Source: Cenococcum geophilum (taxonomy: Eukaryota). From it: 64,000 bases of DNA. Below the pieces are notes generated by a model, which had not been told where the DNA came from, searched no databases, and was given only the letters and a program-made list of their open reading frames with translations. The stretch lies in assembly GCA_050273025.1 (NCBI GenBank), contig CP158635.1, positions 21,576,001-21,640,000 of the forward strand. The letters are read 5' to 3'. The position numbers and the translations under genes were made by a program. The stretch's first letter is position 1, and each line of letters opens with the position of its first letter. This document shows positions 20,691 to 50,277 of the stretch, piece by piece.

Positions 20691-21568
20691 CAATAAGGCT
20701 CGCGGAAACCGCTTATATTATTAAAACCACCTAATTATCCCTAATTATAATAAGATTAAGCTTAATCTTCTCAAATATATATATAATCTACTAGTAGCTA
20801 GCTATCTAGGCTAAAGAAAAATACCTAGAGCTACTTTAGCGAGAGTATTACTGGCTAAATATATATAATATAATATAGAGGTATATCTCTAGCTGCTTTT
20901 TTATTTTTTTTTATTTTTTTTATATCCGTTGTATTATACTATGTACAATACTGCGCATGCAGCCTCTAGGCTATGGCGCTATAGTTCTATATACATAAAT
21001 CCTTTCTAGGCAGCTTAACATGTACTAGTAGCTAAGTGGACACTCTGGCCCGTTTTTAAAATGCTAGGGGAGCTCTAGCGACTAGTGTTTTTTCGTTCTA
21101 GTATTTTGCTTACTATGGTCCAGTTCACACCAAGAAAACTAAGGAAATCCTGGCTCTTTTATCTATTTCTGCCGTATTCTGCCGTTCCTAGAGTAGAAAA
21201 AGCGCTCTAAAAGAATGATTTTTATTAAATAGTTTTGCACTTAAGAATAAGAGGCGTTATAATAGCTTGCTAGCTTGGAAGCAGCTACCAATTACCCCTA
21301 AAGCGACTTTTTATCCTGTACCCTATCTCTTCTCCTTGCTAAAGAAATGGGTAGGGAATTAGTAATTAATAGCTACTCTCCCCAAAAGTAGGCTATTAAT
21401 GGTATTTTATAAGGGCGAACCTCGTTACATAAACCTACTCCCATAGGAAAATTTTCACGAGGTTGTCTGTATAGGGTATAAACACCAATTCGCCTATACA
21501 CCTTATATTTTACGTGCTAAAGTAACACGGGCCGGCCCCCCTCCCCTCTCCCCCCTGCTGTAGCTACC
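20691..21568. mobile_element. Unclassified RIP-degraded repeat fragment, possibly the end of a DNA transposon
   Basis: TpA-rich. Ends in a C-rich terminus (gggccggcccccctcccctctcccccctgctgtagctaccc) that abruptly truncates the neighbouring GC-rich element. No domain recognised. Confidence 0.35.
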
Positions 21569-21635
21569 CTATCTGCGCATCTGCGGTACGCCTATAGTGC
21601 GGTGTTGTATGGCATATTGTAGCGGTAGTGGTTGC

Positions 21636-21796
21636 GGTTGTGGTAGAGGTCGTCTGCAGCTCGATGGCTGTAGACAGGTTGCGGAGGTCGTCTGCAGCTC
21701 GATGGCTGTAGACAGGTTGTAGTAGAGGTCGTCTGCAGCCTGATGGCTGTAGACAGGTTGTGGTAGAGGTCGTCTGCAGCTCAATGGCTGTAGATA
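21636..21796. repeat. Minisatellite, 4 copies of about 41 bp
   Basis: Unit ggttgtggtagaggtcgtctgcagctcgatggctgtagaca; the second copy is 3 bp shorter. Confidence 0.9.
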
Positions 21797-23541
21797 GGCA
21801 GGTAGTTATATAGTAGAGTTCGACATGCCTGCTTATCCAGGCCTCTACCCCAGTTTTCTAGTAGCTTTCCTATTTATCTAGGCCCGAGGGCCTAGGGCTT
21901 TCCACAAGCAGTTGGCTGCTACCACCCATAACACGGGGAATTTCACCAGTTCTCTCGGATATCTTATAATAGGCTATTAGCCTAAGTACTAGCCTGCCCC
22001 CCAGCAGTCTATATAAGAGTCTCCTCCTAGAGTTGGTACGCTTTTGCACGGCTTGGGAGCCTTCCATAGCCTCTAGTTTTACGCCTCTTTTCATTGTTTC
22101 CGCCGGCATAGGCATAAGCTGCCATTTACAGGGGTCGCAACTCCCGTCTTACGCGCCTACTGACGTAATCCTACAAGGGCGTCGTAGCTGCATCCTGCAA
22201 TGTGGTTGAAGCCTTAGGTACCATCTACGGTTAAGGCCCAGCCAAAAGCCTCCCCCGCCTAAGTAACTCCTGTTTGCTCCTTAAGCGTACCTCACTAGCG
22301 TACTGCCCTAGCGAGCAGTCGTACTGCCCTAGCAAACAGTCCTATCTATTAGTACACCGACACGCGCATCCGTTCTCTCAAGCCACGTAGTAGTCTCTCC
22401 GGCCAGGACGTGATCCTGCCTGCCTACCAGGTGCACTAGGGGTCAGAGCCCAGCTAAGGGGTAAGGTCCCTAGAGCCAGCAGTGGCTACTACGCACTACG
22501 CCCCGCGGGAGGTTTTAATTCCCGTTTCGCGTTGCCTGTAAGAGTCTCCTTATAACAGGCCGACCGTGTCTTGCAGAATAGGTTATAGACTAGGTCCCGT
22601 GCCAGGCGACCTACCCTACCCTATTCTACTAACCAAGCTTATGTCCCCCCTTTGTATAAGCTAGCCTGTGTCTCTAACTGTCAAGTCCTCGTACGACTAG
22701 CCTGTGTTTCCTTAGAGCCTCCCCCATATATATGCGCAGGTTGCGTGCACCACGCCTATTAAGACCCTCCTGTGAGTCACCTGTAGGTTAACCGTAGGTC
22801 GAACGCCATGGGGCCGTCGAAGCTGGCCTGTGTTTCCGCTGCCTAGAGCTTTGCCCGTGTTTCCACCTCGTTAAGCCGTCTGGTTGCCGTCGCGTCGCCG
22901 TCGCGTCGCTGTCGCGTCCTGTCGTCCAGGTCGCGCGCACCACGCCTATTAAGACCCTCTTCTGAGTCACCTGGGTGTACCGGATACCAGATAGGCCCTC
23001 GTAGAGGGGCCTTAACGAGTTCTCTAGGCAGGGCCTTAACAAGTTCTTCGCGGTGGCCTTAGGGCCTTAACAAGTTTCGTACGATTCTACAACGCGTTAA
23101 CCTTAACAAGTTCTTATAAGCAGAGATTTCCTACGCCCTCGCCGCGTTCCTTTGCGGTCTCAGAGCTAGTGCAAGCCCAAGGGTGTCCTGTTGTACGTCT
23201 AGGTCGCGTCCACGTCGACTGGCTGAATAAGGCCAGTTTCGGGCCTGGCTACGAGCCAGGTAGTCGTACATCGGGTGGTTTTCGTATCCCAGTTTCCCTT
23301 GATAGCCCCCCTAGATGGTAGAGCAGGAGCCCCAGGCGGGGGCAGTAGGGCTCCTGGTGTTGTTGAGGGCGATGCTTCGTACGCGTCGCAGGCTCAACAC
23401 CACAGAACCGCGACGACAGCGCGCTGCACGCGCTGCGACGGCTCCCTACCATCGCCTCTGCACTTGGCCATCAAAAGGAACGATTTCCTGATGATGTTTC
23501 CACCCGCGGCGACGTGGACGCGTGCAGTAGGGCTTCGCGGG
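21797..23541 (-). repeat. Dispersed GC-rich 1.75 kb repeat (leader copy 1), homologous to 47871-49638
   Basis: Colinear, same-orientation match from ggcaggtagttatatagtagagt to gtagggcttcgcggg. Differences are dominated by RIP transitions, and this copy is the less mutated one. Confidence 0.92.
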
Positions 23542-25043
23542 TATCTCTAGCTGCTATACCTATTAATAAGCTAAAGCTTTATATAAGATATATAACGGCC
23601 TTTTAAAGCCACTACCTGTTCTAAACCAAAGATAGAAAGATATTTTAATTAACTTTATTATTAATCTCCTTATAAGTAAAGGCTATATAAATACTATAGT
23701 AATTATAAACTAACTACCCAAGATAAGACACTTAATTGCCTACCCTAATATATTAGCACCTATTATTACCTAACTATTCCTAAATTATATATAGAACCTC
23801 TATAAACTCCCTAAAATAATTATCTCTAATAAATGCCGCTAGTTTATCTTTATATTTTAAAAAGAACTAACTACCTAGCTTTGCGCTAAAGTATTATTAT
23901 CTACTATATATTACTTAAAAATGGATAGTTAAACGGAATATAGAAATATATATATTATACTTATAGGATAACTAGATTAACTAGCTTATATTTACTAGGT
24001 TTACTATAAAGGTCTTCCTATTTCTAACTAACTTCGGTTAGTATCTATAAATAGGGTTTAAACCCTTTAATAATATCCCTTACTCCCCTTATTACGCCTT
24101 ATAAATTATAAAAGTAAATAATTTTATAAAAAAGATAGAGAAACTATAATAGTTCCTTACTAATAAGATAACTTAAGCCTAGTCTATCTATAAAGCTATA
24201 GTAAATAAGAACTAAACCCTAGTACTAGCTTACTAAGTTAGTAATTTCGCTTAGCTAGATATAAAGAAATTTAAATAAAAAATAACCTATTAAGAAACTT
24301 AATTAGAAGAACCCTGCCCCTTATAAGGTTAAAAAGAGTATCTTTCCTTATATATACTAACTAAAGCTCCCTACTATAGTTAAAATCTACCCTATATTAT
24401 ATACATTAGTTCTTTACCCTATTACCCCTATATTAAACGCCCTACCTAAATAGATTTAGACCCCCCCCCCCTACTAATTAAAATAGATAGTAAGGATAAG
24501 TACTTTATTAAAAGAATTAATAATATTAAGTATAATAAACGAAAATGCTAATATATATACCTTATAAAATAGAGAGACTATATTAAGCCTTTATAGGAAC
24601 CTATTAACTCTATAGAACTTATATAGGCTATAAAAGACTTTTATAAGCTTAATTTAGAACTAGTATAACCCTATCTTATAGAAGCTTAAGTTTAAAGGGG
24701 GGGTGCTATTATAGGATACCCCCGCAATACCTTATACACGCCTACCTGTTTCCACCGACTTAGTAACTAAAGACCGACCACAAGATGGCAATCTGCTATA
24801 TTCTGCCATATTCTGTTAAGTCCGCCGAATCCTGCCAAGTTCTGCTAGGACCGCTGCGCGAATCCTATTCTGCCCCGTGCACGTGTTAACTAAGTAACCA
24901 AGTTAACGATATATACCCTTTCTTCCTGTTTCCTTACCTTCCTTCCTTACGCAACGTCTTGACTTTATTATACAGTTTATGTACGTAGCTCAGTAATATC
25001 TGCCTCGCTATATATTATCGTCACTCGTACTCACTCCGTGATA
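23542..25043 (+). mobile_element. 3' fragment of a Gypsy chromovirus (integrase, chromodomain, PPT, 3' LTR at about 24707-25043)
   Basis: YNGLLKPLPV..QR.KDI.I.FI..L integrase motif at about 23590-23670; chromodomain-like D.YFI..I...YLIK. at about 24495-24580; PPT aaaggggggg at about 24695; LTR-like end ccgtgata at 25043, where the RIP signature stops. Confidence 0.75.
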
Positions 25044-25613
25044 GATACTATTGCTAAACCTTGGGGATGATCGAGGCATGCTATGTTTGACATATCCATC
25101 TCATATGGCCACTATATCAATTAAATACTTCTGGCAAGTCCAAGCCTGAAGATACCCTCCTACGAATATTACTTAAGCACACGTCGCGCCTTTAACCTTC
25201 TGCAACCCGTAAGGCGTGCATCTGATTAGTTGAATGGCTCTTGGTATGGAATGGAGTGTGTTGAGATATAGGTAAATTAAATTCATAAGCTATCTAATCA
25301 ATTTGAGGTTCGGCATCAATCAATGCACTTGTAATTTACTTCCAAGACAGCTCTCGCATGTGAATAAAAGCCCATCAGCACAATCAGAAGTTGAGTAGCC
25401 CAGAAAGGAGAACACAAAGCTTGGGGCAGTAATTACCGAGTGCTTTTAAAAGACCCGACAATATTATGAACGTCATTCATTGCCATTAGTAAACACATCA
25501 TACGAGTGCTAAATGCAAGGATTAACGTCAAAAGTGAGTTCATCACTGTAGATAACGTCCATGATCTCCAAAGCGGAACGGCCATTTCCATTACCAGGTC
25601 GCCGGGAAAGCAA

Positions 25614-32469: not shown

Positions 32470-34014
32470 TTGAGCTCCTGGTTATTAGTAAGGTGGTGCA
32501 TATATTGGAACTCTTAGCCCATTCTATGGCAAGCCCAGGCTAAATAAATTCAAATGTCTAAACGTTGATCTCACTATCCAGGACTGGGACATTGAGGCAC
32601 TTGTTTCAGGCTGTAAGGTCGCATTGGTACTCCGTACCCGGTAGCCCGTTCCCTCAGTTTGACGAAATATAACCCCCATCCAACCCCACAAACTCGGATA
32701 ACTAAATAGATTGACTTCACACGAGAAATACCATTAAAAGGTCCAATAACGCGGGTTTTAGCTTCACCCTCACAGAGAAAACGTCCTTGATTCGATCTTG
32801 GCAACCCTGATCCTTCCACCTCCCGTTTCTAAATAAAGACTCACGAAAATTTCTTTAATCAATCTGCTTGAACGTGGGACTCATCACCCTGTCATCCCCA
32901 AGAAAAAACCCTCGGACGTTATCACAGCTCGTGCCCGAAGCATGATCGCCCAAAGCTGCTCTCCGTGAAATGCCGCGCCCCACGCGCACTCCCATTCGCT
33001 GCGGCACGTTTATTTCCATTTCGCTTAACCATGACGATGTGCCGGCGTCGGCTGGGCTTGCCAAGTTCCCGTCATGCATCCTTCCTGCACCGTGCGATGC
33101 ATGCGGCTGTCCCCGTGCTAGAAGGTGGTACGAGCGAGCGAATCCTTCACGACTAAGAGAAGCGGTCTGTTACATGCAGCTGTGACGAGGCATGTCCGGG
33201 GAAACGGTTTATTGAGGGTTGAGCGCGAGTAGCCTTGGATTTCGGGGATTTCTTATTGGCTGAGAGAGCAGGCTAAGGGTGGAGGACCGTTGATGAAGTT
33301 GGGAGAGAATGGGATAATGGAGGCAGGCTGGGATCGTCGAAATAACACTGAAGCTGTCCTTGAGTGATTAACACTTCTTTGCGCAATATCATCCTAGCTC
33401 TGAGCCTGGGAAGGTTGCAGAGCAAGGGGACGATATTTCCAAGAGACAAAAAGCAATACATGAAATGAAAGTTGGACAACCCTGAGGGATGCTGCCAACT
33501 TGTGCTTATTTCTGCTTAAAACGTCACTGTGACAAACATTGTAAAACGTCGGGAGTTGAATGGTTTCAAATCTCCGAAACCGGTGGAAACGAGTATCAGA
33601 GAGTGGACTAGACCCTAACATTGCCACGCTTGCCGAGTGGAGACTCCAACATCCTTATTTGCAGTTTTATGCCAACAATACAAGAGAACTGCTAAGCTCT
33701 CGGCCTTGTGTTTTATACTTCATTGGGTTACTTGGAAAGCCAAATTTGACCTGGATACGGCTCTGGAGATACAGTCAGGCGGCTGATGATGAAATACCCT
33801 TTGACTTCATTCCTTCTCCCCACAATAAGGCCTGCTTGGGCCTGTATTTTCCTTAAACGTGCCCATCTTCCTTGTCTTATCTGCTAGACAAGACCTATGG
33901 CTTAGTATGGCAGGTTTGCTGTGATTCTCAAAACTTGCACAATGAAGTCGTCGAAGGAAACACATAGGCTAAGGAACAAAGATTTAGCTCAGTACCTTTT
34001 TACAAAGCTGCCTT

Positions 34015-35845
34015 TCACTTCTTAGTAAAGAATGACGTAATGTTCCCCTGCCCTGGCTTGGCACCCTTCTTGCGCTTTGAAGTGGCATTAGTCATACCAG
34101 GTGCCTTCAGCTTCTTTGGTTCAGGCTCGTCTTCCGAAAAAGACTCCCAAACTTGTTCTTCTTTTGTCACTGTTCATGGTCAGAGAGCTAAAAAAAAGTT
34201 CACGCAACTCAAGGTAATTACCGAGGTATCCCTCCTCATCTTTGACTGTCTTCTTCTTCGTCACACGGCGCCTTCCTCGCCTCCGGCCTCCTGTGACAGT
34301 CACAGCAGCCTCTGGCTCATCTATCTCCCGAGGTTGCGGTTGTTTATCAAGTGGAGCACTAGCTGGTTCTTCTTCTGTTTCAGCAGGAGCGTCATCCATG
34401 GATACATCATCTGTTGCAAATCGAATTAGCATCCGCCTTGGATCAAGATTATTGGACACCCATACCATCCTCCATCATCTGCCGCAGTTTTTCTTCGCGC
34501 TCAGCGCGGGCCTTGCGTGCAGCGTCACTCTTTTCTTTTGAGATCTCGACTTCAGGAGTGTAGTCTTCCTCATACTCATCTTCTGAGACGTCTTTCATGG
34601 GTTCTGCATTAAATTCAGCAGTAGCCTTCAATGCCAAATGGGTAATACTTACCATCTTCCTGAGCACTTTGTTCCGCCTGCCGAATAATCAGTAGACGTT
34701 ACTTGGAAGTATGAACTGAGACATACCGAATCTGTAGCTGGAGTAGCTTCCTTGGGTTTTGCTTTGGCCTTCGCAAACGACTTGAATATGTCTGAGCTGT
34801 CGCGTTTGAGAGCGGGCTTCGCGCCGAGCTTCTTTGCACCGGTAGTCGGCTCGGCTTGTGGTGTAGATTGACTGGATCTGCCGCCCTCTGATTCGCTTCC
34901 TCTCCTCGCCTTTGGTAATCCAGCATCCTTCTCCTTTGTTTGTGCTGTGTTGTTCGGCCGTGGGGTAACCTTGGAAGTCGTCGTGGGGACTACGGAGGCA
35001 ACTGGAGGGGGTGGTACACGAGTCGCCCTTCGCTATATATAAATATCAATATCAACACAATAAAGAGAGCGGAATTGTGAACCTACCGTGATATTTGGAT
35101 TATGAATGGTTCCATATATCTTCCAGTTTTCTAAGGGGTCCTCGTGGGCATACTTCCGGGCGATTTCCTGATTGCCAACTGATAGAAGATGTATGTTCTA
35201 AAATTTATCAGCAATAGCATTCCTGCATGCGCATACGCATATCCTACTTCTAGAGGACCTGGCTCTAAGCTGTATATGTGTATGGAGGTCATTTCTTCCA
35301 ATTGCGCCTTCACCCCTGATATAGTGAGCATCCTTTTGTCCAGCAATATGATATCATGCCCTAGATTTATCTTGAACAAGCCTACCCTCGAGGTCTTCCT
35401 CTTTGACCAGTATGATTGAGGTAACAGCTATGACCTCCTCGGTAGCCTCCTCGGGCTCCGGTATTGAGCTCGTAAACGGAGCGCTCTGCATGAAGCTGTT
35501 TGCTCCATCCTGCGGCAATGTACCGTTGGTGTATTGTGAAGGTTTTGGACGCTTTTTACCGGTAAGAAGATAGGTTGCATGGACCGAACCAGGCTTCTTC
35601 GCGTTCTGTTTTTGGTAGAAGTCGTATAGCATCCTGGCAGGTTATAAGTTGGTGTAACTTATGGTACTGTAGATGCACTTACTGTTTTGCGAGGTTGACG
35701 TGCACTTTCAATGCCCGGCTTAGAGCACGGTAGGTGACCTTCAAGAACGATTAATTGAGATATAGATGTCTGCAGAGACACCACTTACAATTTGACTGTC
35801 ATTGAGAACGTGAGTTGCTAGGTATTCCTTGTACTTATCAGCCAT
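34015..35845 (-). CDS. POL32: DNA polymerase delta subunit 3 (Cdc27/Pol32 family), multi-exon
   Basis: Spliced N-terminus MADKYKEYLA...VTYRALSRALKVHVNLAKQ|MLYDF...GSVHATYLL; SIHIYSL; RRRGRRRVTKKKTVKDEEGYL...WESFSEDE; C-terminal PIP box QGNITSFFTKK-stop. Confidence 0.92.
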
Positions 35846-36019
35846 AATGGTGGGCCGTTTTGCTGCTATGTTCGTTAGAATGTGGTGTTGTCCTGAAGTC
35901 ACGCCGTCTTCAAACGATTCGCGAAATCATGTGAAGCAAATTTCAGGTCGCGTCGCCCATCGCGAAAAAGGCTTCCACCATAACCTCTCGTCCCACTCCG
36001 ACAGGGAATGTGCACAAAA
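35846..36019. promoter_or_regulatory. Compact divergent promoter with SCB/MCB-like CGCG motifs
   Basis: 174 bp between the POL32 and cofactor D start codons. CGCGAAA at 35920-35926 and 35961-35967; CGCGT at 35949-35953. Confidence 0.55.
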
Positions 36020-39000
36020 ATGAACACAACTGAGGATGAAGATATCAAGCTACAGCGAGCGTCTGCTTCATTACTCTCAGATCTGCAAGCTTTGCTGGAC
36101 AGAGTTTTGTGGAAGCTAAAGGTCGAGAACTCTGGTTATGGTCAAATTCATCGTAGAGTAAGGGAGGCGGACTTGGATCGTATTATTTCTTTGGTAGCAT
36201 TTCTCAGCTCCTTTGTTTCTCCATTGCTGAATGACTTTTCAGGTTGAACCGTTCCAAGAGGATCCACAGTTGCTAGACTCGCAAATGAAGAATCTCATTC
36301 CTCCGTTAGTTGTTGCCTATTTGAAATATATCCAAATTTCTCCTCGACCCCTGCTAAAGAAGAGGCTTATTCCCTTATCGCATGCTGTTTGCAGAATTTT
36401 GAATCTTCTCTGCAAGGTCCGAGGAGAGAAGGTCATTGCTGGTTTCCTGAACAATGAACCTCGTTACCTCGAGCCAATTCTTACTGAGTTTGAAAAAGAA
36501 GAGAACTTTCCAACCCAGGCACCAGAAGAAGTATCCCAAAAGATAGTTCCTTGGGAGGAGAGATATGTACTTCTTCTATGGCTGTCACACCTGATGCTGG
36601 CCCCATTTCCTCTCGCGTCAATCTCTGCTCTTCAGCCGTCACAGGAGACCTCCAATAGATTTGATATCGATCTACCTCCTCAGCTTCCTGGAGTTGCTCT
36701 TCGTGTTCTTCCAATATGTATTAGGCATCTTGATTCTGCAACGAAAGAGCGGCATGCGGCTGGGATACTTCTCGTACGACTCAGTGTTAGGCCTGACATG
36801 AGGAAGATTGGATTACTTGATTCTCTCGTCCAATGGGCTTTGTCATTCTTCACTACGTCATCTCAAAAATTATCCGACATCCATCAATGCCTTGGTGTGC
36901 TCTCTTTTTTGAGTGGTCTTGTGGCATCCTCGACCAACCAAGAGATTGGCCCATTGCTTCCTACCATTTACAAATCGTGCCAAGATATCATTAGTGAAGG
37001 AGCTCTCGGTTTTGTGAGATCATCCGCGGTAGCAAGGAAGCTGGTTATCAAAATACTTCGAAATGTTGTCGTCCATTGCTTGCAACCCACGTCTGCTCCT
37101 TATGGTGTTGATATTTCCACTACTTTAGAGGATGTAATTGATTTTCTGCTTGAATCTCTTGCTGATGGAGATACACCTGTCAGATATGCGGCAAGCAAGT
37201 CACTCAGTATGATAACTATGAAGCTCAAAGGTGGGCTGGCAAGGGAAGTCGTCGAAGCTATTCTTGGGTGCCTCAATGAGAATGTTTATTGGGAGGGCTC
37301 TAAGAGGAATCTCGACGCTGTCAATCCTCTGAGATGGCATGGCTTGGTCCTGACTCTTGCTCATCTCCTTTATAGAAGAGCACCTTCGACAGAGCTACTC
37401 CCGGATATCCTCAATGCATTGATACTAGCTCTCGCATTTGAGCAGCGATCTTCAACCGGTGGCTCTATTGGCACAAATGTTCGAGATGCCGCATGCTTCG
37501 GTATCTGGGCTCTATCCCGTCGATATTCCACTAAGGAGCTTCTTGCTGTTCAAACGACATCAATCCGTGCCTCCCAGAAGAAGCACCAGATGTACTCGGT
37601 CCCGCAAGTTCTCGCTGTTGAGTTATTGTTAGCTGCGTGTTTGGACCCAGCTGGCAATATTCGGAGAGGCTCTTCAGCAGCCCTACAAGAACTTATAGGT
37701 CGCCATCCGGATACAGTTCATGATGGCATCCCTCTAGTTCAAATTGTTGATTATCACGCAGTTGGACTCCGCGACAGGGCTATGTGCGATGTTGCTATTA
37801 AGGCCGCACGACGTAGCCGGATATACTGGGATGCGGTTTTTGAGAACCTCCTGGGATGGAGAGGTGTGGGATCTTTGGATGTGTCATCCCGCCTATCTGC
37901 AGCAACAGCAGTAGGTCTGTTGAGCCGTCTCCAGCCATTTGAAGTTGTAATCGGGATGGTGGACCAGATATGCCAACACCTAGGGGGGCTTGCATCAAGA
38001 GAAGTTGAGGAGCGCCACGGACTTGTAATGTCACTGGCATTCCTCATCAGCGAGTGCAGTATGCAGTCTTCAATTCAAGATGGGAAGAATGCAAATGTTG
38101 AGGAGAAACCACTTGTCCGAAGAACGATGGAGGACTTGGCTAACCTGACCCGACTGTGGTCACTGTTTGAGGGTAGTCTTCAACTCGAAGATAAGGCATT
38201 TACCTCAACCGCTTTACGGCCAGAACTCACTACAGCTGCATTCTGCAATCTCCTTGGAAGTTTGGCTACTGTTACTTGCCAAGTCTCAAAATCGAGTGAG
38301 ACATGCAGTCTCCCAAGCAAAAACATGGTCAGATTCTTTAATTTATGTCTCGAGCGTGATGAAGAATCCGTTCTTCAAGCCATTCCGACGGCGGCAATAC
38401 ACGTAGTCGAACTGGCTCAAACGGATCCCAAATTTGCTGATACGAACGTTGTTCATTTATGGGCGTCATATCTGGACCGGAAGTCTTCCTATTCTGGCTT
38501 ACAAGGGTTTGGCTATGCTATCGCTCTTGGTGCTATCTATTCGAGGCTCAATGCTACTGTGAATGATATTGGTTCTTCAGAAAACCAAGCCCAAATTATC
38601 CAGGTACTAACTCTCAGATGTACAGCTGTTGTCAAGATTGCGGCTCGGACCGTATCTTTGCAAAGTTTAAAGGTTCTACTCGAGAAAACATTGGAACGAC
38701 ATACGGCAATTAACCTGCATGGAGAGTCACCAGCTTTGCCCCAAGACGCAAGAGATAAAATTACAATGGCTCTAAATACAGCATTGAACGACTACACTAT
38801 TACTGAGCGCGGCGATATTGGATCGCTAGTCCGACTGGAGGCACTGAACACCACTGAAACTGCTTGGACAACCGGTCTCCTCAAAGGCTCTGTAGGGGAA
38901 GACCAACTTCATGCCTCCGTACTACGACTCTCTGTGGAAAAACTTGATAAGATTCGAGCTCGAGCTGCCCACTGTCTTGAATTAGGCAATCAGGAACATT

Positions 39001-39861
39001 TCGAGCGGTGCGCAGCGTCTCGTGTTTTCCTCCGTAATAGGTTGCTAATTGATAATAGTGCAATAATTGGAGTCACAGATGGCGTTTCGTCTTATGCATA
39101 CTTCACTGAGACGCTCAAAATCTTCAATCCTTCAAGTCCTTACTGGCTCAAGGCCGCAGTACTCGAAGGCTATGTAAGCTCCGCAGGAATGGGTTCTGAG
39201 TCCGTCGTCCAAAATTCTCGAATGGCACTAGTAGATGCTATCGACCAACTTCCTGTGACCCTTTCTGAGGCGAACGAATCTGGATGCTCTCTCCTCGACA
39301 TTATGGACCAACTCCTCGAACTTTTGAAGGTTAACATTTCTACAGAGCGCATTCTCATCCCTATTCTGGAAGTTATCGCATTCTTGTTCGACGCGCAAAT
39401 CTTGCAACGGCTTATTGGTACAAACTTCAAGTACGTTTCCATCTCGCCTTGAATCTTAATGATTCAAATTTAGTCATCTCCTTACACTACATGCTTACAT
39501 AGCTACCGCTCTCTTCTCTTCCTAATCCAGAAATCTCACTACAAGTCAACGAACCTACATAAGCTGCATATTGCATTAGATGTCTACCGTGGCCTTGCAA
39601 ATATTCCAACCATACGTAAAGATGTCATCGCTAAGGTAGCAAGCATGTTGCTACATCCATTCCCTAAGGTAGGAGTCCTTTCTCAGAGCTCTTTCCTAGA
39701 GTTTCTATTGGAGACTTTCGCTAATTTTACAGGTTCGAATTACTGCCGCGGAAACCCTTTGGATCACTACCGGGGATGAGGATTTGAAGCTTCACGATTG
39801 GTCACAGCCAGCTAAGAACTTGAAGGCTACTGTAGAGAGTATCAAGCAAGGCAACCAGTAG
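36020..39861 (+). CDS. TBCD: Tubulin-specific chaperone D (beta-tubulin folding cofactor D; Cin1/Alp1 family), multi-exon
   Basis: Motifs EPFQEDPQLLD, CKVRGEK, WEERYVLLLWLSHLMLAPF, DGDTPVRYAASK, WHGLVLTLA, GTNVRDAACFGIWALSRRY, NIRRGSSAALQELIGR, LNDYTITERGDIGSLVRLEA, EKLDKIR, LLHPFPKVR. GT-AG introns near 36194, 39008, 39432 and 39669. Confidence 0.93.
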
Positions 39862-40158
39862 ACAAAGCATCGAAGCCTGAATAGTAGTCAGAAACAAGGC
39901 AGTTGAATCCTAAATAACCAATGGGGGTTGGTGAGGATCGCATTTCAGGAGGTATCCAAAAATCTAGGTTAGAGATGGTAGAACTATAGACGTGCGTAGA
40001 GGACTAGTGCACTGTCCTAGATGTTTGTAGTATGCTATTTGAATATACTTGAAGCTCGATTTGGTAGAGCATTGGTCTTGGCACCCCTCCATTTCAACCC
40101 CACACCGAAAAAAAGTCGCGATGTCAAAGTCTTGTGTCAATGTAACACTGCAACCACA

Positions 40159-42629
40159 ATGACTTTACCACCCTCTATATGGGAGCTACCTATGGGTGAG
40201 TACAAAGCGTGATCTTACCTTACTTATGTTTTATGGCTTGGCGCTGTTGGTCTAACAACCAAATAGAGCTCCTTGCCGTATGGCACAAGCACAGAATTCC
40301 CATCCTCTTATCCACAGTATCCCTGTTGGCCTTAGTACGCTTCGCAATATACCTTAGGCAGAGCAGGAAGAAACTGTCTGTATCACCAGTACCTGGTTCT
40401 CCAGCAGCAAAGAGCAATGACGTCAATAATTCCTGGTTGAATTCTGTGGCGGTTCCTCCAGAACCAATCGTGCAAGCCGATGATCATGCGGAGGATGTAA
40501 CAATTGTTGCAGGGTTGGATGCGAAACCAAAGAAAGGCCCTAAGAAAGTAACGGGGGCCAAGCTGCCGAGAAAAGCATCGAAGCAGCCTGCAGGATTCAA
40601 TCACACAACAGATCGGGTGCAGCCCCTTATATTCTTCTCGTCCCTCTCTGGCACGACGGAGAAATATGCCTCACAGCTCGCAGAAAATATTAGCTCTTGG
40701 GTCGAGAATTCCAAAAGCTCCTTGCCGCTCTGTAAACCCGAACTCTATGACCTTTCGTACATTGAGCACGATGACTATTTTATTACCCTTCCAAAAGTTG
40801 AACCCGACACCAAGTACTTCTATCTCGTTCTATTACCTACCTATAATATCGACACTGTACTGAGTACATTTCTTGAAAATCTGCAGGACACACACAATGA
40901 CTTCAGAATCGATACCGCCCCGCTATCTGGTCTACTGGGATACTCTGTGTTTGGATTCGGGGACAAAGAAGGTTGGCCTACTGAGGAGGAAGGATTCTGT
41001 TCCCAAGCTAGGGAGGTAGATAAATGGTTGGCAAGATTGACCGGGAGGAAGAGGGCATATCCTTTGGGCATGGGTGACGTGAAGAGCGATGCACGAGATA
41101 GGCTCAAGGAATGGCAGTTGGGCGTTCAGGAGGCGCTGACAGAGATTGCCTCTGGACGGGGTCTCGGTGAGGGTGCACCTGGTAGTGGGGATCCTGCTGA
41201 GAGTGGTGAAGAGGATGTTGACGAAATGGAAGACAGCAATGAAGAAGAAACCGCGCCTACAAAGAGACGGAAATCCCAAAAAGTGGCAAGGCTTGACGAT
41301 CTCGAAGATTTGGGCCGAATGGTTAACACTGACAGCCCACCCAGCCAAGTTCCTCTGGCAGTCGACTTCACTACATATAGTTCCCCAAAGTCAAGAACCC
41401 CTGTCTCTGCTCCACCGAAGGAAATGGTACCTACGACTTCTCCTACTTATGCAGCGCTCACAAAACAAGGCTACACAATCATTGGCTCACACTCAGGTGT
41501 GAAAATCTGTCGCTGGACTAAATCAGCCCTCCGTGGCCGAGGATCTTGCTACAAGTACTCTTTCTACGGCATCCAGTCTCATCTATGTATGGAAGCTACC
41601 CCATCCCTCTCCTGCAGCAATAAATGCGTCTTCTGCTGGCGCCACGGCACCAACCCAGTTGGCACAACATGGCGCTGGATCACCGACCCGCCTCAAGTAA
41701 TATTTGACGGGATCACGGCGGCACACTACAAAAAAATCAAAATGATGAAAGGCGTCCCCGGCGTCCGCGCCGAGCGGTTCTCCGAAGCCATGCGCATCCG
41801 GCACTGTGCCCTTAGCCTTGTCGGCGAGCCAATCTTCTACCCGCACATCAACGAGCTTGTCAACATCATGCACTCCAACCGCATCTCCACTTTCCTCGTC
41901 TGTAACGCACAACACCCCGCACAGCTCACCGCCCTGGTGCCCGTCACACAGCTCTACGTCTCCATCGATGCGAGCAATAAGGACAGCCTAAGGAAAATCG
42001 ACCGCCCACTGCACCGTGACTTCTGGGAGCGCTTCTGCGCATGCCTCGACATCCTGCGCGAGCGCCGCTTCGAGCAGCGCACCGTATTTCGGCTGACGCT
42101 CGTCAAGGGCTTCAATATGGCGGATGAAGCGCGCGGGTACGCGGAGCTGGTGCAGCGTGCCCTCCCGGCCTTCGTCGAGGTCAAGGGCGTCACATACTGC
42201 GGGACCAGCGCGGCGGGCAGCGCGGGGCTGACCATGCAGAACGTGCCGTTCTACGAGGAGGTCGCTGAGTTTGTGACGGCGCTGGCGAAGGAGCTCGCAG
42301 ACCGCGGCTTGCGCTACGGCATTGCCGCCGAGCATCAGCATAGCTGCTGCATCTTGCTGGCTGATGAGGAGAGATTCAGGAGGCAGGGGAGGTGGGCGAC
42401 GCGGATTGATTTTGAGCGCTTCTTCGACTTGTGGGAGGGGAAAGTAGCGGGGACGGGGGTCGATGGGAAGGGCTGGAGGCCAGAGGACTATGTGGGTGAG
42501 GATACGCCTGAGTGGGCGCTTTGGGGGAATGGTGGGTTTGATCCGAGGGATACGAGGGTGTGGAGGAAGGGGAAGGGGAAGAAAGCTCTTGAGGAGCCGG
42601 TAGAGGGGGCTGAGGGAGGGTGTGGATAA
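40159..42629 (+). CDS. TYW1: S-adenosyl-L-methionine-dependent tRNA 4-demethylwyosine synthase (flavodoxin + radical SAM)
   Basis: Flavodoxin motifs FFSSLSGTTE and YSVFGFGD; LTKQGYTIIGSHSGVKICRWTKSALRGRGSCYKYSFYGI; CxxxCxxC in CSNKCVFCWRHGTNPV; EVKGVTYCG; TPEWAL...GGFDPRD. Exon 1 is 40159-40195 and the intron is 40196-40266. Confidence 0.97.
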
Positions 42630-45420
42630 GAAGATTGCGCCTAGGTTATTGTATATTGCTGAAGGTGGGTTTGGGAAAGGTCTATGGAGTCGGTGCAAAC
42701 AATGTAGTCAATGTCTAGGTCAGGGTTGTTTTGGATAAATCTTATCGCGATAAAATGCAATAGATATCCTTATCGCGATAAAAATATCCATTGCGTCTTA
42801 TCGCAATAAGTCTTAGCATACCCCAAATAAATTTTTAGTCGCCCTCCTCCCCCTATTATCGTACAAAATATGGCTTTAGAAGTGGAATCAGAAGCTCTTA
42901 AATCTATTAATACCTTTAAATTAAAAAATACAAAAGGTTGCTTAGCTCTTTTAATATAGGAGCATACCTATTTACTAGGTAGTAATAAGCCCGTATAAAA
43001 TAAAAAAGCCTATCTTTTATTCTATTATAAACACTATATAGAGTTATATACTATATAGTTAACTTCTAACTTCCAAAACTACTTAGCGTTAAAGTATAGC
43101 ATTATAGTTAAGCCTAAAACTAGTTATATAAAAGAAGCAATACGGAATTAATTAAAAGACCTTTACCTTAAAGCGTTATCTTAAAATAAGACAGAAGAGC
43201 TAAATTTAATAATAATAATTCATTGCTTAACGTCCGATTTGGATCCCTATTAGGCCTACGCGGACTACTTCTTATATATATATAGGGAGAAAACTCTATT
43301 TAAGAAAACCCTATAATCTATCTCCCCGCCTTTTAGGACTCGCCTATAAGGCGCCTGCGAGTCACTAGTGGTGCTCCTACTACCTTATTTTTTAACCTCT
43401 TTAGGAACCACTGCTGCCGTAATAAGCCTACGGACGCGCTAGTATTATAAACTTTACTTTACTACTATAGAGTTATTAGGGGGCGCCTATTACTTACCCC
43501 CCCGCCCTTTATTATTATTTTCTTTATAACCTAGAACTAGGTTAGTATATTTTAGCTAATAAGCCACTAGGTAACCGCCTTAAGGCCTTTTTATATTAAG
43601 AGCAGTATCTTATAGTTCTCTATGCCAGCTACTAAGAGTATTATTTCTTAGTTAGTACGTAAGGGGCATAATAGTATTATATGTTTTAGTGTCTGTCTTA
43701 GCCAGCTATATTTATATCTTAGGCTACCTATTAGGATACCTACCTAGTAGAGCTAGTTTTTTAGTCCTATTATTCCTATTCTTAAGAGTGTTGCTATTAT
43801 ATTTTCTGCCTTTATTAGGCCTTCTTAGAGCTCTAAAGTGTTTACCCCCTATAGCGTTAACTATACTACGGCTTAGATTCCTCTTACTTTAGTTAGCCTC
43901 TATACCTTTAACTTCTATACGCCTCTCCAGTATTGTATTATAGTAGATGGTTTCCTAGCGTTCTTTTATGCTCTACTTTAGCTCCTTTTTTTTTCTTACT
44001 GTTATCTTTACTAGCCTCTTACGCGTCTTCCTTCCTCCTTTATATAGGCCTGGGCCCTAAAGCAGCGCTATTCTTCTTCTGCTTTCTTTACCTATTTCTC
44101 TAATATATCTTCCCTACTTTAGGGTTGTTAGTTTGTTCTCCTATAAGGCGCCCTAGGGTCCCTCTATAGTTTATTTAGGCGTATCTTAATATACTTTATA
44201 ATATTAAAGTTGCGTTCCTTTTATGCCCTTTATATTATAGTAGCTTTAATATATAGTTATAGGGGGCAAATATTAGCTTCCTTCTTAAGCAGTGCTGTAG
44301 CCGTTTACTTATATCCGCCTATTATACTTTAGAGGTAAGCTATTTGGACCTTTTAGAGTAGTTTAAAAAGCGATTTAGGGGGGCCTTTTTTAGATTCTCT
44401 AATGGCCTAAATACTGGACCTATACGTTATAGTTAGCCGGATAACTGCTATATATAGTAGGCGTGACCTCTAGAAGCATGGACCCTATATAGAGTTAACA
44501 ATCCTAGATAATACGATATACTATACTTAGCCCTTATAGGCCGCTTACGCCGTATATACGCTCTATTAGAGCTTACTATCTACCTATACTCCTAATACTC
44601 TTAGGCTCTAAACTAGTTAACCCCTAAAGCCTTAGATATAAATTATATACTAGAGATCTGTAGATTAGTTGCGTTTTCTTATAAAATAAATTAGCTAGTA
44701 TTTCTCTAGTAAGAATTGGACTTTATATCGTCTTGCCTATTTTATATAGGTATTATAAGCTTTCTCTAGTGTTCTATAATTCTCTATAGCTATTAGCCCG
44801 TATATAATTAGGTTTATATTATTAATGAAGCCTATCCCCTAGGTTGCCCCTTTTTTAAAGGAGTTAAGTAGGTTGCTTATAAAGAAAAGGAAGAGTATAG
44901 GCGAGAGGGGTAATCCTTATAGTATTCCTATTGCAACTGTAATAGGGGGGCTTTAGTATCTACTAAAGACTAATAATGTTTTTTTTTAACCTATAAACCC
45001 TTAAATAAATTATATAATCTATTCTAGGAAGCCTTTTACCCTAAGGATATATAAGAGACGCTTATGGGGTATATTATTATAGGCGCTATTAATATCTAGG
45101 CTAAGTATTAATACTATAAAGTCCTTTCGCATCGCCTATATAGATTTAATAGTGGTAGCGAGTAGCGTAAGTGCTAATAGTATTAAGCGGTTCTTTCTTG
45201 CCCCTATTTAGCTTTATAGTAGTAGGGCGTATTCCTTAGCCGTATCTACTATGCGATCCGCTATTACCCTTTCTAAGATCTTGCTAAGGGTATTCTTTAA
45301 GGCAATAGGGCGGTAGCTCTTTAGAAATAAGTAGTCTGCTTTACCTTCATCGGGAAAATATTCGCAGGATGAGATTCAAGTAGACTTTGATTTTCGCGTT
45401 TCGCGTAATTGACATGCAAT

Positions 45421-45650
45421 TTAACCAACTCGACACGCAATTGACCAACTTAACACGCATTTGACTAACTTAACACGCAATTTAACCAACTTAACACGCA
45501 ATTAACCAACTTAACACGTAATTCGACCAACTTAATACATAATTAACCAACTTAATACGTAATTCGACCAACTTAATACGCAATTAACTAACTTAACACG
45601 CAATTTAACTAACTTAACACGCAATTAACACGCAATTAACTAACTTAATA
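45421..45650. repeat. Minisatellite array 1: about 20-bp unit, about 11 copies
   Basis: Consensus ttgaccaactcgacacgcaa with RIP variants such as ttaaccaacttaacacgcaa. Confidence 0.9.
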
Positions 45651-45809
45651 TATTTAAAAGTTAAATAATACGCAGTTGACCTACTTAGCAACTTTAAAAG
45701 GTAACTGTATATTTCTTGACATGCAATTAAGGTAAAGTTATATGCTATATATTTAACTATTATATATTATCTAATATAATCTTATACAATCTTATATAGT
45801 CTTATTACT

Positions 45810-46258
45810 TAGAGGCTCTGCATGAGGCTCTGCACGAGGCTCTACACGAAGCTCTACACGAAGCTCTGCGTACAGAGGCTCTGCACGAAGCTCTGCGCAT
45901 AGAGGCTCTGCACGAAGCTCTGCGCATAGAGGCTCTGCACGAAGCTCTGCACGAAGCTCTGCACGAAGCTCTACATACAGAGGCTCTGCACGAGGCTCTG
46001 CGCGAGGCTCTGCGTACGGAGGCTCTGCACGAAGCTCTGCACGAAGCTCTGCACGAAGCTCTGCACGAGGCTCTGCGCGAAGCTCTGCGTACGGAGGCTC
46101 TACACGAAGCTCTGCACGAGGCTCTGCGCGAAGCTCTGCATACGGAGGCTCTACACGAAGCTCTACACGAAGCTCTATACGAAGCTCTACGTACAGAGGC
46201 TCTGCACAAGGCTCTGCGCGAAGCTCTGCGTACGGAGGCTCTACACGAAGCTCTGCAT
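45810..46258. repeat. Minisatellite array 2: mixed 12-bp and longer units, roughly 35 copies
   Basis: Core gaagctctgcac / gaggctctgcac interspersed with longer variants such as gaagctctgcgtacg. Confidence 0.92.
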
Positions 46259-46380
46259 CGGGTCCCCGCTATATTCCCGATAGCGTCTACACGTGTCTCT
46301 GCCTATGTAGCCGCCTTATTTTTTACCCTTCCTTCCTTCCTTACATCCTCCCTACCTAGGGAGGCACTAGAACGGCAGCC

Positions 46381-46950
46381 AGCAGAGGACCGTTGCTAGA
46401 ACTAGATGACTATCGCTAGAACCAGACGACCGTCGCCAGAACCAGACGACCGTCGCCAGAACCAGACGACCGTTACCAGAACCAGACGACCGTTACCAGA
46501 ACCAGACGACCGTCGCCAGAGCCAGACGACCGTCGCCAGAACCAGACGACCGTCGTCAGAGCCAGACGACTATCGCCAGAGCCAGACAACTGTCGCTAGA
46601 ACCAGACGACCGTCGCCAGAACCAGACGACCGTCGCCAGAACCAGACGACCGTCGCCAGAACCAGACGACTATCGCCAGAGCCAGACAACTGTCGCTAGA
46701 ACCAGACGACCGTCGCCAGAACCAGACGACCGTTACCAGAACCAGACGACCGTTACCAGAACCAGACGACCGTTACCAGAACCAGACGACCGTCGCCAGA
46801 ACCAGACGACCGTCTCCAGAGTCAGACGACTGTCGCCAAAACCAGACGACTGTCGCCAGAGCCAGACGACCGTCGCTAGAACCAGACGACCGTCTCCAGA
46901 GTCAGACGACCATCGCCAGAACCAGACGACTGTCGCCAGAGCCAGACGAC
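46381..46950. repeat. Minisatellite array 3: 20-bp unit, about 28 copies
   Basis: accagacgaccgtcgccaga in strict 20-bp phase, with internal dyad cgac-c-gtcg. Confidence 0.95.
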
Positions 46951-47007
46951 AACGACTAGCCAGCGAACACTATAAACGATTCGATCGATTGATCGAATCA
47001 AGGTAGC

Positions 47008-47265
47008 ACAGACAGGTAGGCACAAACAGGGAGATGCTGACGGGTAGGCAGATGCAGACAGGTAGGCAGATGCAGACAGGCAAGCAGATGCAGACAGGTA
47101 GGTAGATATAGACAGGTAAGCAGATACAGATAGGTAAGCAGATGCAGACAGGTAGGCAGATATAGATAGGTAAGCAGATACAGACAGGCAAGCAGATGCA
47201 GATAGGTAGGCGATGCAGACAGGTAGGCAATATAGACAGGTAGGCAATGTAGGCAGGTAGGTAAG
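47008..47265. repeat. Minisatellite array 4: about 18-bp unit, about 12 copies
   Basis: gacaggtaggcagatgca and RIP variants. Confidence 0.9.
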
Positions 47266-47870
47266 TCAATAGGTAGATAGGTAGAAGAGAACCATCGCTA
47301 TATTATATTAAATTATCTAAAATAATAATATTTATTTTGCTAGCCTTATAAATAGCTTTAAAGTAGCTTTTATTTATTTAAAATATGCTATTAGTATAAA
47401 AGAGGTAAATATAATTATAGTTACCAAATGCGCAGATTGCTGGCAGGTTGCGCGCAGGCTGCGCGCAGGCTGCGTATCAAAAAAACACGACATAGGCTAG
47501 TCGGTCGAGTTGCCAAATGACCTTAACTGCGCGCCAATTGCGTCAACCACCAACCATTGAGGCCATTGAAAGGGTACCATATTTTCCCGATGTTCTTTAT
47601 ATAGGATAAACGTTGTTATAGCTCTTCTAAGTCTTAGGTAGTAGCCTATTATAAAGTATACTTTAGCTATATCCGTAAGCTAAGGTGCTATTAGTGGTCC
47701 GTAGGTCTTTAGGGCTTTATTTAGGATCCTATCTAGTCCTAGTGCTATATTATTTAAAAGGCGGCTAATAATTCTAGTCATTTCTTTAGTTATTATATTG
47801 CTATTAACCCTTAGGCGAGTTACTAGTGCTTCGCCTATAATATTACTAAGGTCTGCTAAAGCTGGTTAAG

Positions 47871-49638
47871 GGTAGGTAGTTATATAGTAGAGTTTAATAT
47901 GCCTGCTTATTTAGGCCTCTACCTTAGTTTTTAAGTAGCTTTCCCTTACTAAGCCCTAGGGCCTAGGGCTTTCTATAAGCAGTTAGCTGCTACCACTAAT
48001 TAATGGGGAATTTCACTATTTTTTTTAGGTATCTTATAATGGGATTAGCCTAAGTACTAGACCGCCCCCTAGCGGTTTATATAAGAGTCTCCTCCTAGAG
48101 TTAGTACGCTTTTATACGGCTTAGGAGCCTTTTATAGCCTTTAGTTTTATACCTTTCTTTATTATTTCCGCCGGTATAGGTATAAGCTGCCGTTTCTAGG
48201 GGTTATAACTCCCTTCTTATATGCCTACTGGCGTAATCCTATAAGGGCGTTATGGCTGCATCCTGTAATATAGAAGCCTTAGGTACCTTTTACAATTAAG
48301 GCCTAGACTAAAAAAGCCTCTCTTACCTAAGTAACTTCTATTTACTCCTTAAGTATATCTTACTAGCGAGCCGCCCTAGAGGTAAACGGTTTTATCTATT
48401 AATATACTAATACGCGTATCCGTTCTCTTAAGCTATATAGTAGTCTTCTCCAGCTAGGACGTAATCTTATTTATATACTAGGTGCACTAGGGGTTAGAGC
48501 CTAGCTAAGGAGTAAGGTCCCTAGAGCTAGCAGTGGCTATTACGTACTACGCCCTATAGGAGGCTAGTAGTAATATAAGGGCGTAATACCCTATACACTA
48601 CTAGCTTCCATTTCGCGTTGCCTATAAAGGTCTCCCTATAATAGGCCGACCGTATCTTATAGGAGAGGGGTTATAGAAATACTAGGTCCTATACTAGACG
48701 ACCTACTCTCCCCTCTCCTACTAACTAAGCTTATGTCCCCCCCTTTTATAAGCTAGCCTATATCTCTAACTATTAAGTCCTTATCCGACTAGCCTGTATT
48801 TCCCTTATAGCCTCCCCTATATATATATATTGGGTTACGTGCACTACGCCTATTAAGACCCTTCTATAAGTCGCCTATAAGTCAACTATAAGTCGAGCGC
48901 CATGGGGCCGTCAAAGCTAGCCTGTGTTTCCCTGCCTAGAGCTTTGCCCGTATTTCCACCTCGTTAGGCCGTCTAGTCGCCGTCACGTCGCCATCACAGC
49001 GCCGTCGCGTCGCCGTCCCCTAGGTCGCGCGCACCACGCCTATTAAAACCCTCTTTTAAGTCACCTGATTATACTAAATACCAGATAGGCCCTTATAGAG
49101 GGGCCTTAATAAGTTCTTTAGGTAGGGCCTTAATAAGTTTTTTATGGTAGCCTTAGGGCCTTAATAAGTTTTATATAAAGTATCTACGACGCGTTAACCT
49201 TAACAAGTTCTTATAAAAGGAGGATCCCTACGCCCTTATCGCGCTTACTTCGCGATCTTAGAGCTAGTATAAGCCTAAGGGTGTCCTATTATACGCTTAG
49301 GACGCGTCTACGTTAACTAGCTAAATAAGGCCAGTTTTGGGCCTAGCTACGAGCCAGGTAGTTATATATTAGGCGGTTTTTATATCCCAGTTTCCCTTAA
49401 TAGGCCTCCCTAGATAGTAGAATAAGAGCTCTAAGCGGAGGTAGTAAGGCTCTTAGTGTTGTTAAGGGCGATACTTTGCACGCGTCGTGGGCTCATCACT
49501 ATAGAGTTAAACAACAGCGCTATACGCGCTGCAACGGCTCTCTACCATCGCCTCTGCACTTAGCTATTAAGAGGAATAGGATTCTAGATAATGTTTCTAC
49601 CTACGGCGATATAGACGCGTGTAGTAGGGTTTTGTGGG
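47871..49638 (-). repeat. Leader copy 2 (5' module of the chimeric insertion)
   Basis: Homologous to 21797-23541 and more heavily RIP-mutated. Fused directly to LINE sequence just upstream of RT. Confidence 0.9.
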
Positions 49639-50277
49639 CGAAGAGCTAAATTTAGAAGTACTTTAAGCGGTTCTAAATAAGGAAGTTATTAATAAGGCCC
49701 TTATTACATTAATTATTATATAAAACCTATTATTTTAGATAGTTAAGTGGCTAAAGTTTTATATTCTTCTATAGTTAATTAATTCTAAAGTAAAGAATAA
49801 GATGGAGACCACGTATTAGGAAATGGAGGTTCCTTTATAGGTAAGGCGCGCTCGCTTTTCTACCCCAGTTTGGCCAAGACCTAACCTCAACCTCGACTAT
49901 AAAAGGCCTTCTCCCTCGCTGCTTTTGCCCTTATGCTCTATCTCCTCTTTTCTTTCCCGCTACCGTGCCACCTCAGACTCTAGCTGTTAGCCATGAGGCA
50001 TTTTCCATCCCCTTAGCGTCTATGCAGGTGCTCTGCCCGCCTTCCCTAATCTCTGTATGTTTTATACTAACGATTACCTAGCGCTGTAACTCTTCGGCCT
50101 TTTCTATGGGATATATTTATACTCTCTCCTGGTATTAACGTATGCTTCGGTCCTACCGTATTTCTCCTTTTTTCTTTTTTCTCTCCTTTCCTCTTGCCCA
50201 CGTCCCCTACCGGAATAATATTTCCGTTTATCCTCTTCTTTACCTCCGCCTCTAGCAGTGTCTTAGGCGTAACTATA

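What the first reader, a model, noticed from the sequence alone, without database searches (positions are those of the whole stretch)
43194..49654. Chimeric retroelement: a non-LINE 1.77 kb leader fused to a truncated LINE and inserted as one unit
Seen: a single 15-bp TSD (GAAGAGCTAAATTTA) brackets both the LINE 3' part, with its (TTA)n tail, and a GC-rich 1.77 kb segment in which I see no ORF1 or endonuclease motifs. The LINE part starts just upstream of RT. The hAT reading frame resumes across the TSD. The same leader occurs at 21797-23541 with the same 5' end but a different 3' continuation. Known: Magnaporthe MINE is a composite of a non-coding WEIRD sequence joined to 5'-truncated MGL LINEs, attributed to template switching. 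Inference: this is an independent MINE-like family in which a specific transcript hitchhikes on LINE reverse transcription.
Basis: partly seen in the sequence, partly recalled or inferred. Interest (0 to 1): 0.75.

Follow-up and report, generated by a model that had tools for sequence, protein, structure and literature searches.

The report
Ribozyme-headed RNA grafted onto fungal LINEs
A 1.8-kb non-coding RNA that begins with a self-cutting ribozyme fold has been copied hundreds of times into this fungal genome by being joined, always through the same last letter and mostly at the same short target word, to the cut-off tails of jumping genes; such chimeras are known from the rice blast fungus, but the ribozyme head and the joining rule point to a self-spreading RNA parasite.

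Summary
Confirmed, with corrections. The leader is not this LINE's 5' UTR (29 of 29 other ORF1-bearing copies lack it) and encodes no recognisable protein. It is a family of at least 350 copies with fixed ends: an HDV-like ribozyme fold starts at base 1, and the last base is G (or RIP-derived A) in 189 of 189 ends. Partners are variably truncated LINEs of several families, poly(A) non-coding repeats or another leader; TSDs flank 41 of 41 testable chimeras. Junctions follow R-U|C-C (TCC sites used about 26%, GCC about 5%); ordinary truncations do not (2 of 16). A young clade arose from a RIP-mutated genomic copy and took new partners; no solo source was found. Verdict: a MINE-like chimeric retroelement, new variant; joining most likely by LINE-RT template switch, RNA-level cut-and-join not excluded.

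The parts
43194..43208 (+). Target-site duplication, copy at the element's 3' end
   Evidence: empty-site copies carry one unit
43209..45347 (-). LINE 3' part (LINE nt ~3379-5546): RT domain, C-terminal region, 3' UTR, (TAA)n tail; RIP-damaged
   Evidence: RVT_1 E=3.5e-15; 91% to family majority sequence
45348..47592 (.). Later nested non-autonomous DNA element, 2,245 bp, 14-bp TIRs (CA...TG), TT duplication, internal tandem arrays; not part of the chimera
   Evidence: 53 right-end matches genome-wide
47593..47872 (-). LINE piece between junction and nested element (LINE nt ~3102-3380); starts with the CC of a recurrent T|CC site
   Evidence: site used by 5 independent insertions
47873..49639 (-). 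Non-coding leader, 1,767 nt; last base is the invariant G, here RIP-mutated to A
49552..49639 (-). HDV-like ribozyme fold whose predicted cleavage site is base 1 of the leader; RIP-damaged in this copy, intact in others
47873..47945 (-). Conserved 3' module (two hairpins plus 13-nt tail) kept in all length variants of the leader
49640..49654 (+). Target-site duplication, copy at the element's 5' end
42820..43193 (+). Host repeat (hAT-like transposase, name recalled), left part; continues at 49655
   Evidence: 122 candidates genome-wide
21799..23542 (-). Second leader copy (young subfamily, ribozyme fold intact with A1-U pair)
20898..21798 (-). Partner of the second copy: truncated poly(A)-tailed non-coding repeat with tandem units; TSD 20885-20897 and 23543-23555

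Best explanation
A MINE-like chimeric retro-insertion from a ribozyme-headed, tail-less RNA parasite. Shown: the leader has fixed ends, is joined in sense to 5'-truncated RNAs that carry LINE-type or poly(A) tails, and each chimera is inserted as one unit with a TSD. Inferred: (1) a genomic copy is transcribed from upstream and the HDV-like ribozyme cuts the exact 5' end; (2) a LINE reverse transcriptase starts target-primed reverse transcription on a LINE or LINE-dependent RNA; (3) at R-U|C-C sites, or near the template's 5' end, it switches to the leader at a fixed position set by the conserved 3' module, steered by a two-base GG/CC pairing, and copies the leader to base 1; (4) existing chimeric copies, even after RIP, seed new rounds with new partners, so the family needs no tail of its own. 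The element class is about 90% sure; the template-switch step about 60%.
For: Fixed ends: 350 5'-end and 144 3'-end pattern matches, reversed-pattern controls 0; 89 complete leaders with unique 5' flanks except one triplicated locus; base after the terminal motif G/A in 141 of 141 own and 48 of 48 metagenome ends. TSD in 41 of 41 chimeras whose tail was reached, permuted flanks 3 of 206. Sense orientation in 49 of 49 main-LINE hits. CC at +1/+2 in 34-39 of 60 unique sites against 7-8% background; ordinary truncations 2 of 16 (Fisher P 2e-4 to 2e-3). Four of 80 junctions lie in the first 25 nt of the LINE (P 5e-4) and two more just upstream of its usual 5' end; 11 of 105 ends are joined to another leader piece, up to four parts in one insertion. 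RT clamping on 1-2 base pairs is described (PMC8363836, passages); template switching is the published model for MINE (PMC2104539). Two copies that differ at 3 of 1,744 nt have different partners and flanks, and their clade shares 71 fixed C>T/G>A changes against 4 reverse.
Against: If the leader's own ...GCC end primed the switch, GCC sites should be favoured; TCC sites are used about 26% and GCC about 5% (Fisher P ~1e-4). Where the partner lacks C at +1/+2 the chimera follows the partner (24 of 24 positions at one de-RIP threshold, 27 of 30 at the other), so no leader-derived C is ever seen. What fixes the 3' end is unknown. One raw-read RNA run showed no pile-up of molecule ends at either leader end. 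A solo master was not excluded: only about 141 of at least 350 copies were read.
Confidence: 0.6

Rival explanations
1. RNA-level cut-and-join before reverse transcription: the leader ends at G and is joined to a partner RNA cut at R-U|C-C, either by a host nuclease plus tRNA ligase (as U6/L1) or by a leader-encoded guide of the form GGGU with terminal-G attack, like the first step of group I reverse splicing. The chimeric RNA is then retrotransposed normally.
For: One GGGU guide would explain all four biases (A>G at -1, U>C at 0, C>U at +1 and +2); the terminal G is never lost; no leader-derived C; the bias is absent from ordinary truncations; RNA ligation is shown for U6/L1 (PMC6789731, passages). 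A GGGU word lies in the conserved 3' module and in ribozyme P1.
Against: No group I or II core: Rfam found none on five copies and a generic P3/P7 descriptor gave 1-5 hits per subfamily, within the 0-5 of shuffles. The excess of junctions at the LINE's 5' end suits an RT running out of template. GGGU is a short, common word.
Confidence: 0.3
2. The leader is a host housekeeping non-coding RNA from a single master gene (the reading proposed for WEIRD) and the chimeras are dead-end retrocopies.
For: Leader-like sense reads exist in RNA data; most junctions are unique, as expected from a free RNA; many copies were not read.
Against: Several subfamilies with indels and mosaic 5'/3' characters, lengths 1.44-1.89 kb; the youngest clade descends from a RIP-mutated DNA copy and its nearest genome hits are all chimeric; RIP would hit a master with hundreds of copies (established knowledge).
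Confidence: 0.07
3. DNA-level origin: a DNA element ending in the leader inserts into LINE copies at TCC, and read-through transcripts cut by the ribozyme are retrotransposed.
For: Would give fixed ends and variable junctions.
Against: Needs parental insertions with shared upstream sequence for at least 60 sites; 89 complete leaders show no shared upstream sequence (one triplicated locus aside) and 41 of 41 testable ones have their own TSD.
Confidence: 0.02
4. Internal deletion of a LINE whose normal 5' UTR/ORF1 is the leader.
For: HDV-like ribozymes are typical of LINE 5' ends, so the leader may descend from a LINE-related 5' end.
Against: 29 of 29 other ORF1-bearing copies have a different 5' end; the same leader caps other LINE families and non-coding RNAs.
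Confidence: 0.01

Closest known systems
MINE (WEIRD-MGL) chimeric retroelements of Magnaporthe grisea/oryzae (PMC2104539; parts 1-3 of 5 read, supplements unreadable)
   Same: Full-length non-coding 5' part, variably 5'-truncated LINE, same orientation, TSD, occasional SINE-like partners and three-part chimeras, re-used junction sites, no solo copy found, a CC-containing junction word.
   Different: At least 350 copies against 33; 1.4-1.9 kb against 1.1 kb; HDV-like head (none reported for WEIRD in the parts read); several LINE families and poly(A) RNAs as partners; subfamily structure. Reported MINE word is GCC upstream of the switch in the LINE; here the LINE reads R-T|C-C and the CC is kept. 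Homology to WEIRD could not be tested.
HDV-like ribozymes at 5' ends of non-LTR elements: R2, L1Tc, RTE, baggins (PMC6765202 passages; PMC3185411 search listing)
   Same: Nested double pseudoknot with cleavage site at the element's first base, upstream flanks all different.
   Different: Heads a non-coding module with no tail of its own; the main partner LINE has a different 5' end.
R2 and R2/R1 SIDEs of Drosophila (PMC3414825, abstract)
   Same: Non-autonomous, ribozyme head plus the 3' end of a LINE, hybrids between families.
   Different: SIDEs have one fixed fusion that is re-copied; here the fusion is made anew (60 sites in 80 events on one LINE).
U6/L1 chimeras (PMC6789731, PMC11838501; passages)
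   Same: Full-length 5' RNA with fixed 3' end on variably truncated LINE, sense, TSD.
   Different: U6 is an essential host gene and is ligated by RtcB; here the 5' RNA appears mobile and the join has a target word.

Membership tests
MINE-type chimera | 5' part is a full-length non-coding RNA copy with fixed ends | tested here: met
MINE-type chimera | 3' part is a variably 5'-truncated LINE (or LINE-dependent RNA), same orientation, directly joined | tested here: met
   60 sites in 80 events; 49 of 49 sense
MINE-type chimera | One TSD brackets both parts | tested here: met
   41 of 41; control 3 of 206
MINE-type chimera | Switch-site word GCC*A/U in the LINE | tested here: inconclusive
   Chimera reads G|CC but the LINE mostly T|CC; how the paper assigned the bases could not be checked, supplements unreadable
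MINE proper (WEIRD-MGL) | Sequence homology to WEIRD and MGL | not testable with these tools
   no fungal sequence collection holding WEIRD
HDV-like ribozyme | P1 (7 bp, G1-U wobble), P2, P3, P1.1, P4, UCC..G loop, C and AA in J4/2, site at element base 1 | tested here: met
   descriptor hit at base 1 in 5 of 5 subfamily consensuses, 0 of 300 shuffles; Rfam RF00094 best hit, 27.3 bits, E=0.23, below the 50-bit gathering score; 98% of cells paired in 21 hand-picked copies
HDV-like ribozyme | Covariation | tested here: inconclusive
   one real compensatory pair in P4 (A-U to U-A, 3 related copies); the other double changes are RIP; variation sits in P4 loops; copies were chosen for an intact core
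HDV-like ribozyme | Self-cleavage activity | not testable with these tools
   needs in vitro assay
SIDE / SINE | One fixed LINE-derived 3' tail carried by all copies | tested here: not met
   partners and junctions vary
Normal 5' UTR/ORF1 of the main LINE | Present upstream of ORF1 in full-length copies | tested here: not met
   0 of 29
Group I intron-like ribozyme | P3/P7 catalytic core upstream of a terminal G | tested here: not met
   terminal G present but no Rfam hit and descriptor at chance level; both tests are weak on RIP-damaged DNA

The most novel reading that the evidence does not exclude
The leader is a self-propagating RNA parasite of a new kind: it has no tail for LINE recognition, frees its 5' end with an HDV-like ribozyme, and grafts its terminal G onto any LINE-bound RNA at R-U|C-C sites by guide-directed, possibly RNA-catalysed, cut-and-join; each chimeric DNA copy can release the leader again. 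WEIRD/MINE would be the same thing, which would settle why no solo WEIRD gene was found.
Probability: 0.2. Interest if true: 0.88.

Novelty: new variant of a known kind. Interest (0 to 1): 0.63.

Why it matters
The source and function of WEIRD, and how full-length-RNA/LINE chimeras form (template switch or RNA ligation), are open questions. This family gives hundreds of natural junctions, a sharp target rule, a defined ribozyme head and a short conserved 3' module, so both can be tested directly. It suggests a route to non-autonomous retrotransposition through the 5' end, the mirror image of SINE tail mimicry. No description of a ribozyme-headed MINE-like element was found in the searched library, which lacks most subscription journals.

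Tried and rejected
Protein coding in the leader: longest stop-free stretch 132 codons in the de-RIPed consensus, no Pfam family. Splicing: the two LINE bases before the join are AG in 2 of 42 sites. Circular or tandem monomer: no 3'-end-to-base-1 join among 105 classified ends and none among the listed RNA joints (14 joints not shown). Viral association: 0 matches in viral contigs. Rfam on four heavily RIP-damaged copies: 0 hits at E<=1. Group I core: not found. RNA runs: 20 of 24 listed runs hold part of the leader; in the one raw-read run (12% read) the leader has sense-strand depth of about 2-80, like neighbouring repeats, with no end pile-ups, so ends and level are not shown. Possible pairings of the 3' tail with GGUGG/GCAGG words were seen by eye and not supported by any variation. 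Sequence look-up in earlier findings returned nothing, as did a word search on joining mechanism. Control rows dropped before the 2-of-16 count: of 40 LINE tails fetched, 20 extended beyond the stretch, 1 was leader-capped, 2 had no convincing TSD, 3 began in an indel-ambiguous stretch; 2 rows were added.
Full report
Setting. The window lies in a 178-Mb, 7-contig genome; the repeat blocks have the TpA excess and CpA/TpG loss of RIP, so an ascomycete is inferred.

Observation. The 15-bp direct repeat is at 43194-43208 and 49640-49654. Nine of nine other copies of the surrounding repeat carry one unit followed by the window's right flank at 85-92% identity, so everything between is one insertion, and the host frame continues across it. 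On the minus strand the insertion reads: leader 49639-47873, LINE piece 47872-47593, a nested element 47592-45348, LINE piece 45347-43209 with RT and a (TAA)n tail. The LINE part starts at nt ~3102 of 5546, about 280 nt before the RT domain.

The leader is not the LINE's own 5' end. Of 30 loci fetched for the ORF1 region (40 scored of 860 candidates), one was the chimeric query; 29 of 29 others lack the leader and share a different 5' end about 296 nt upstream. The de-RIPed leader consensus from 60 copies (61% GC) has no stop-free stretch over 132 codons and two copies give no Pfam family in six frames.

The leader is a family with fixed ends. Degenerate patterns give 350 5' ends and 144 3' ends, reversed controls 0; of 20 sampled 5' ends without a listed 3' match, 15 reach the same terminal motif through small insertions or deletions and 5 were interrupted or not matched. 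Eighty-nine complete leaders (1.44-1.89 kb) have unique 5' flanks except one triplicated locus; in 41 of 41 whose partner tail was reached a TSD closes the insertion, against 3 of 206 with permuted flanks. Of the first 105 ends, 44 join the main LINE, 11 join an internal point of another leader, and the rest mostly join other LINE families, a SINE-like family with a LINE-type tail, or two poly(A) non-coding families. At least 4 of the first 45 listed LINE tails on contig 1 are leader-capped. The family is also in metagenome assemblies (121 or more matches) with the same anatomy and new flanks.

The head is an HDV-like ribozyme fold. P1 (1-7/35-41, G1-U), P2, P3, P1.1, P4 and a J4/2 with C and AA are all present and the predicted cut is at base 1. 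A descriptor hits base 1 in 5 of 5 subfamily consensuses and 0 of 300 shuffles. Rfam's best hit on the least damaged copy is RF00094 over the whole model at that place, but only 27.3 bits, E=0.23. Non-RIP variation concentrates in P4 loops, with one true compensatory pair (copies were chosen for an intact core). This window's copy is RIP-damaged in P1 and P1.1. Activity is untested.

The junction rule. The base after the terminal motif is G or RIP-type A in 141 of 141 own and 48 of 48 metagenome ends. On the main LINE, 80 junctions map to 60 sites; CC follows in 34-39 of 60 (background 7-8%), the replaced base is T in 26-28 and the base before it a purine in 50. TCC sites are used about 26%, CCC 7-8%, GCC 5%, ACC 3%. 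Where the LINE lacks C at +1 or +2 the chimera follows the LINE (24 of 24, or 27 of 30 at the stricter threshold with the three exceptions in RIP contexts). Ordinary truncated LINE copies start at CC in 2 of 16 (dropped rows listed under Tried and rejected), so the rule belongs to the leader join. The site used in this window recurs in five independent insertions. Four of 80 junctions fall in the LINE's first 25 nt (P 5e-4) and two just upstream of it. A few offsets are uncertain by one base, and the LINE reference is itself reconstructed from RIP-damaged copies.

The source. Subfamilies differ by indels and transversions and show mosaic 5' and 3' characters. In the youngest clade two copies differ at 3 of 1,744 nt yet have different partners and flanks, and the clade shares 71 fixed C>T/G>A changes against 4 reverse: its source was a mutated genomic copy. 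The seven nearest genome hits are all chimeric (40 of 572 candidates scored). That chimeric copies re-seed the family is inference; a solo master among unread copies or in another strain is not excluded. RNA data show sense reads over the leader at low depth and no end pile-ups; the poly(A) partner family is far more abundant.

Mechanism. Ribozyme-made 5' end, LINE-made integration and a fixed 3' joining point are well supported. For the join, an RT switch with a two-base clamp fits the CC bias, the 5'-end excess and multi-part chimeras, and is the published MINE model (PMC2104539, parts 1-3 of 5; PMC8363836, passages). It does not explain why TCC beats GCC or why no leader-derived C appears; a GGGU guide with terminal-G joining, or nuclease plus ligase as for U6/L1 (PMC6789731, passages), would, but no catalytic core was found. 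I put these at about 0.6 and 0.3.

Comparison and novelty. It works like MINE and meets its structural definition; membership by homology could not be tested, and the paper's supplements with WEIRD sequences were unreadable. It differs from SIDEs (PMC3414825, abstract) in making the fusion anew each time. Searches of the held library found no ribozyme-headed MINE-like element. The names hAT, Tad-like and CACTA-like are recalled, not tested. Eight earlier notes of this scan describe the same family at other loci of this genome; I had noted the ribozyme fold before that call, and those notes are not independent support. Verdict: real, new variant of a known kind, interest 0.63.

Noticed in passing
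window 45348-47592: Non-autonomous DNA element with 14-bp TIRs (CA...TG), a 2-bp TT duplication seen at this one site, and four internal tandem arrays (20-21, 12-15, 20, 18 nt units); 53 right-end matches. CACTA/CMC-like by recalled features, untested.
   Followed up: partly
window 20898-21798; L182:260-1500: Poly(A)-tailed non-coding repeat family with tandem units; very deep in metatranscriptome contigs and well covered in raw RNA reads. A second poly(A) family shares its last ~130 nt.
   Followed up: partly
L139 downstream of the leader; L172, L173: A SINE-like element with its own LINE-type tail shares two short blocks (72-83%) with the middle of the leader; possibly a tailed relative that hints at the leader's origin.
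   Followed up: no
L282, L323: Leader joined 11-12 nt upstream of the LINE's usual 5' end, with the same extra bases in both: the LINE RNA sometimes starts further upstream.
   Followed up: no
L041, L047, L048, L050: Three- and four-part insertions (leader, truncated leader(s), LINE); a single TSD was found for L041 and L050.
   Followed up: partly
L088, L095, L098, L110: One chimera copied with its flanks (same upstream sequence in three), i.e. amplified inside a larger repeat or duplication.
   Followed up: no
window 42736-42815: Imperfect 80-bp palindrome just left of the hAT-like host, between it and the un-RIPed gene block.
   Followed up: no
window 25000-42700: Un-RIPed gene island between repeat blocks: tubulin folding cofactor D (36231-39452), a flavodoxin/radical-SAM wyosine enzyme (40200-42629), a pyridoxamine-phosphate-oxidase-like protein (31426-32199).
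   Followed up: partly
window 16250-17639 and 19300-20695; 8996-9208 and 17681-17894: A 1.4-kb inverted pair (82%) and a 214-bp direct pair (87%, LTR-like spacing) in the left repeat block.
   Followed up: no
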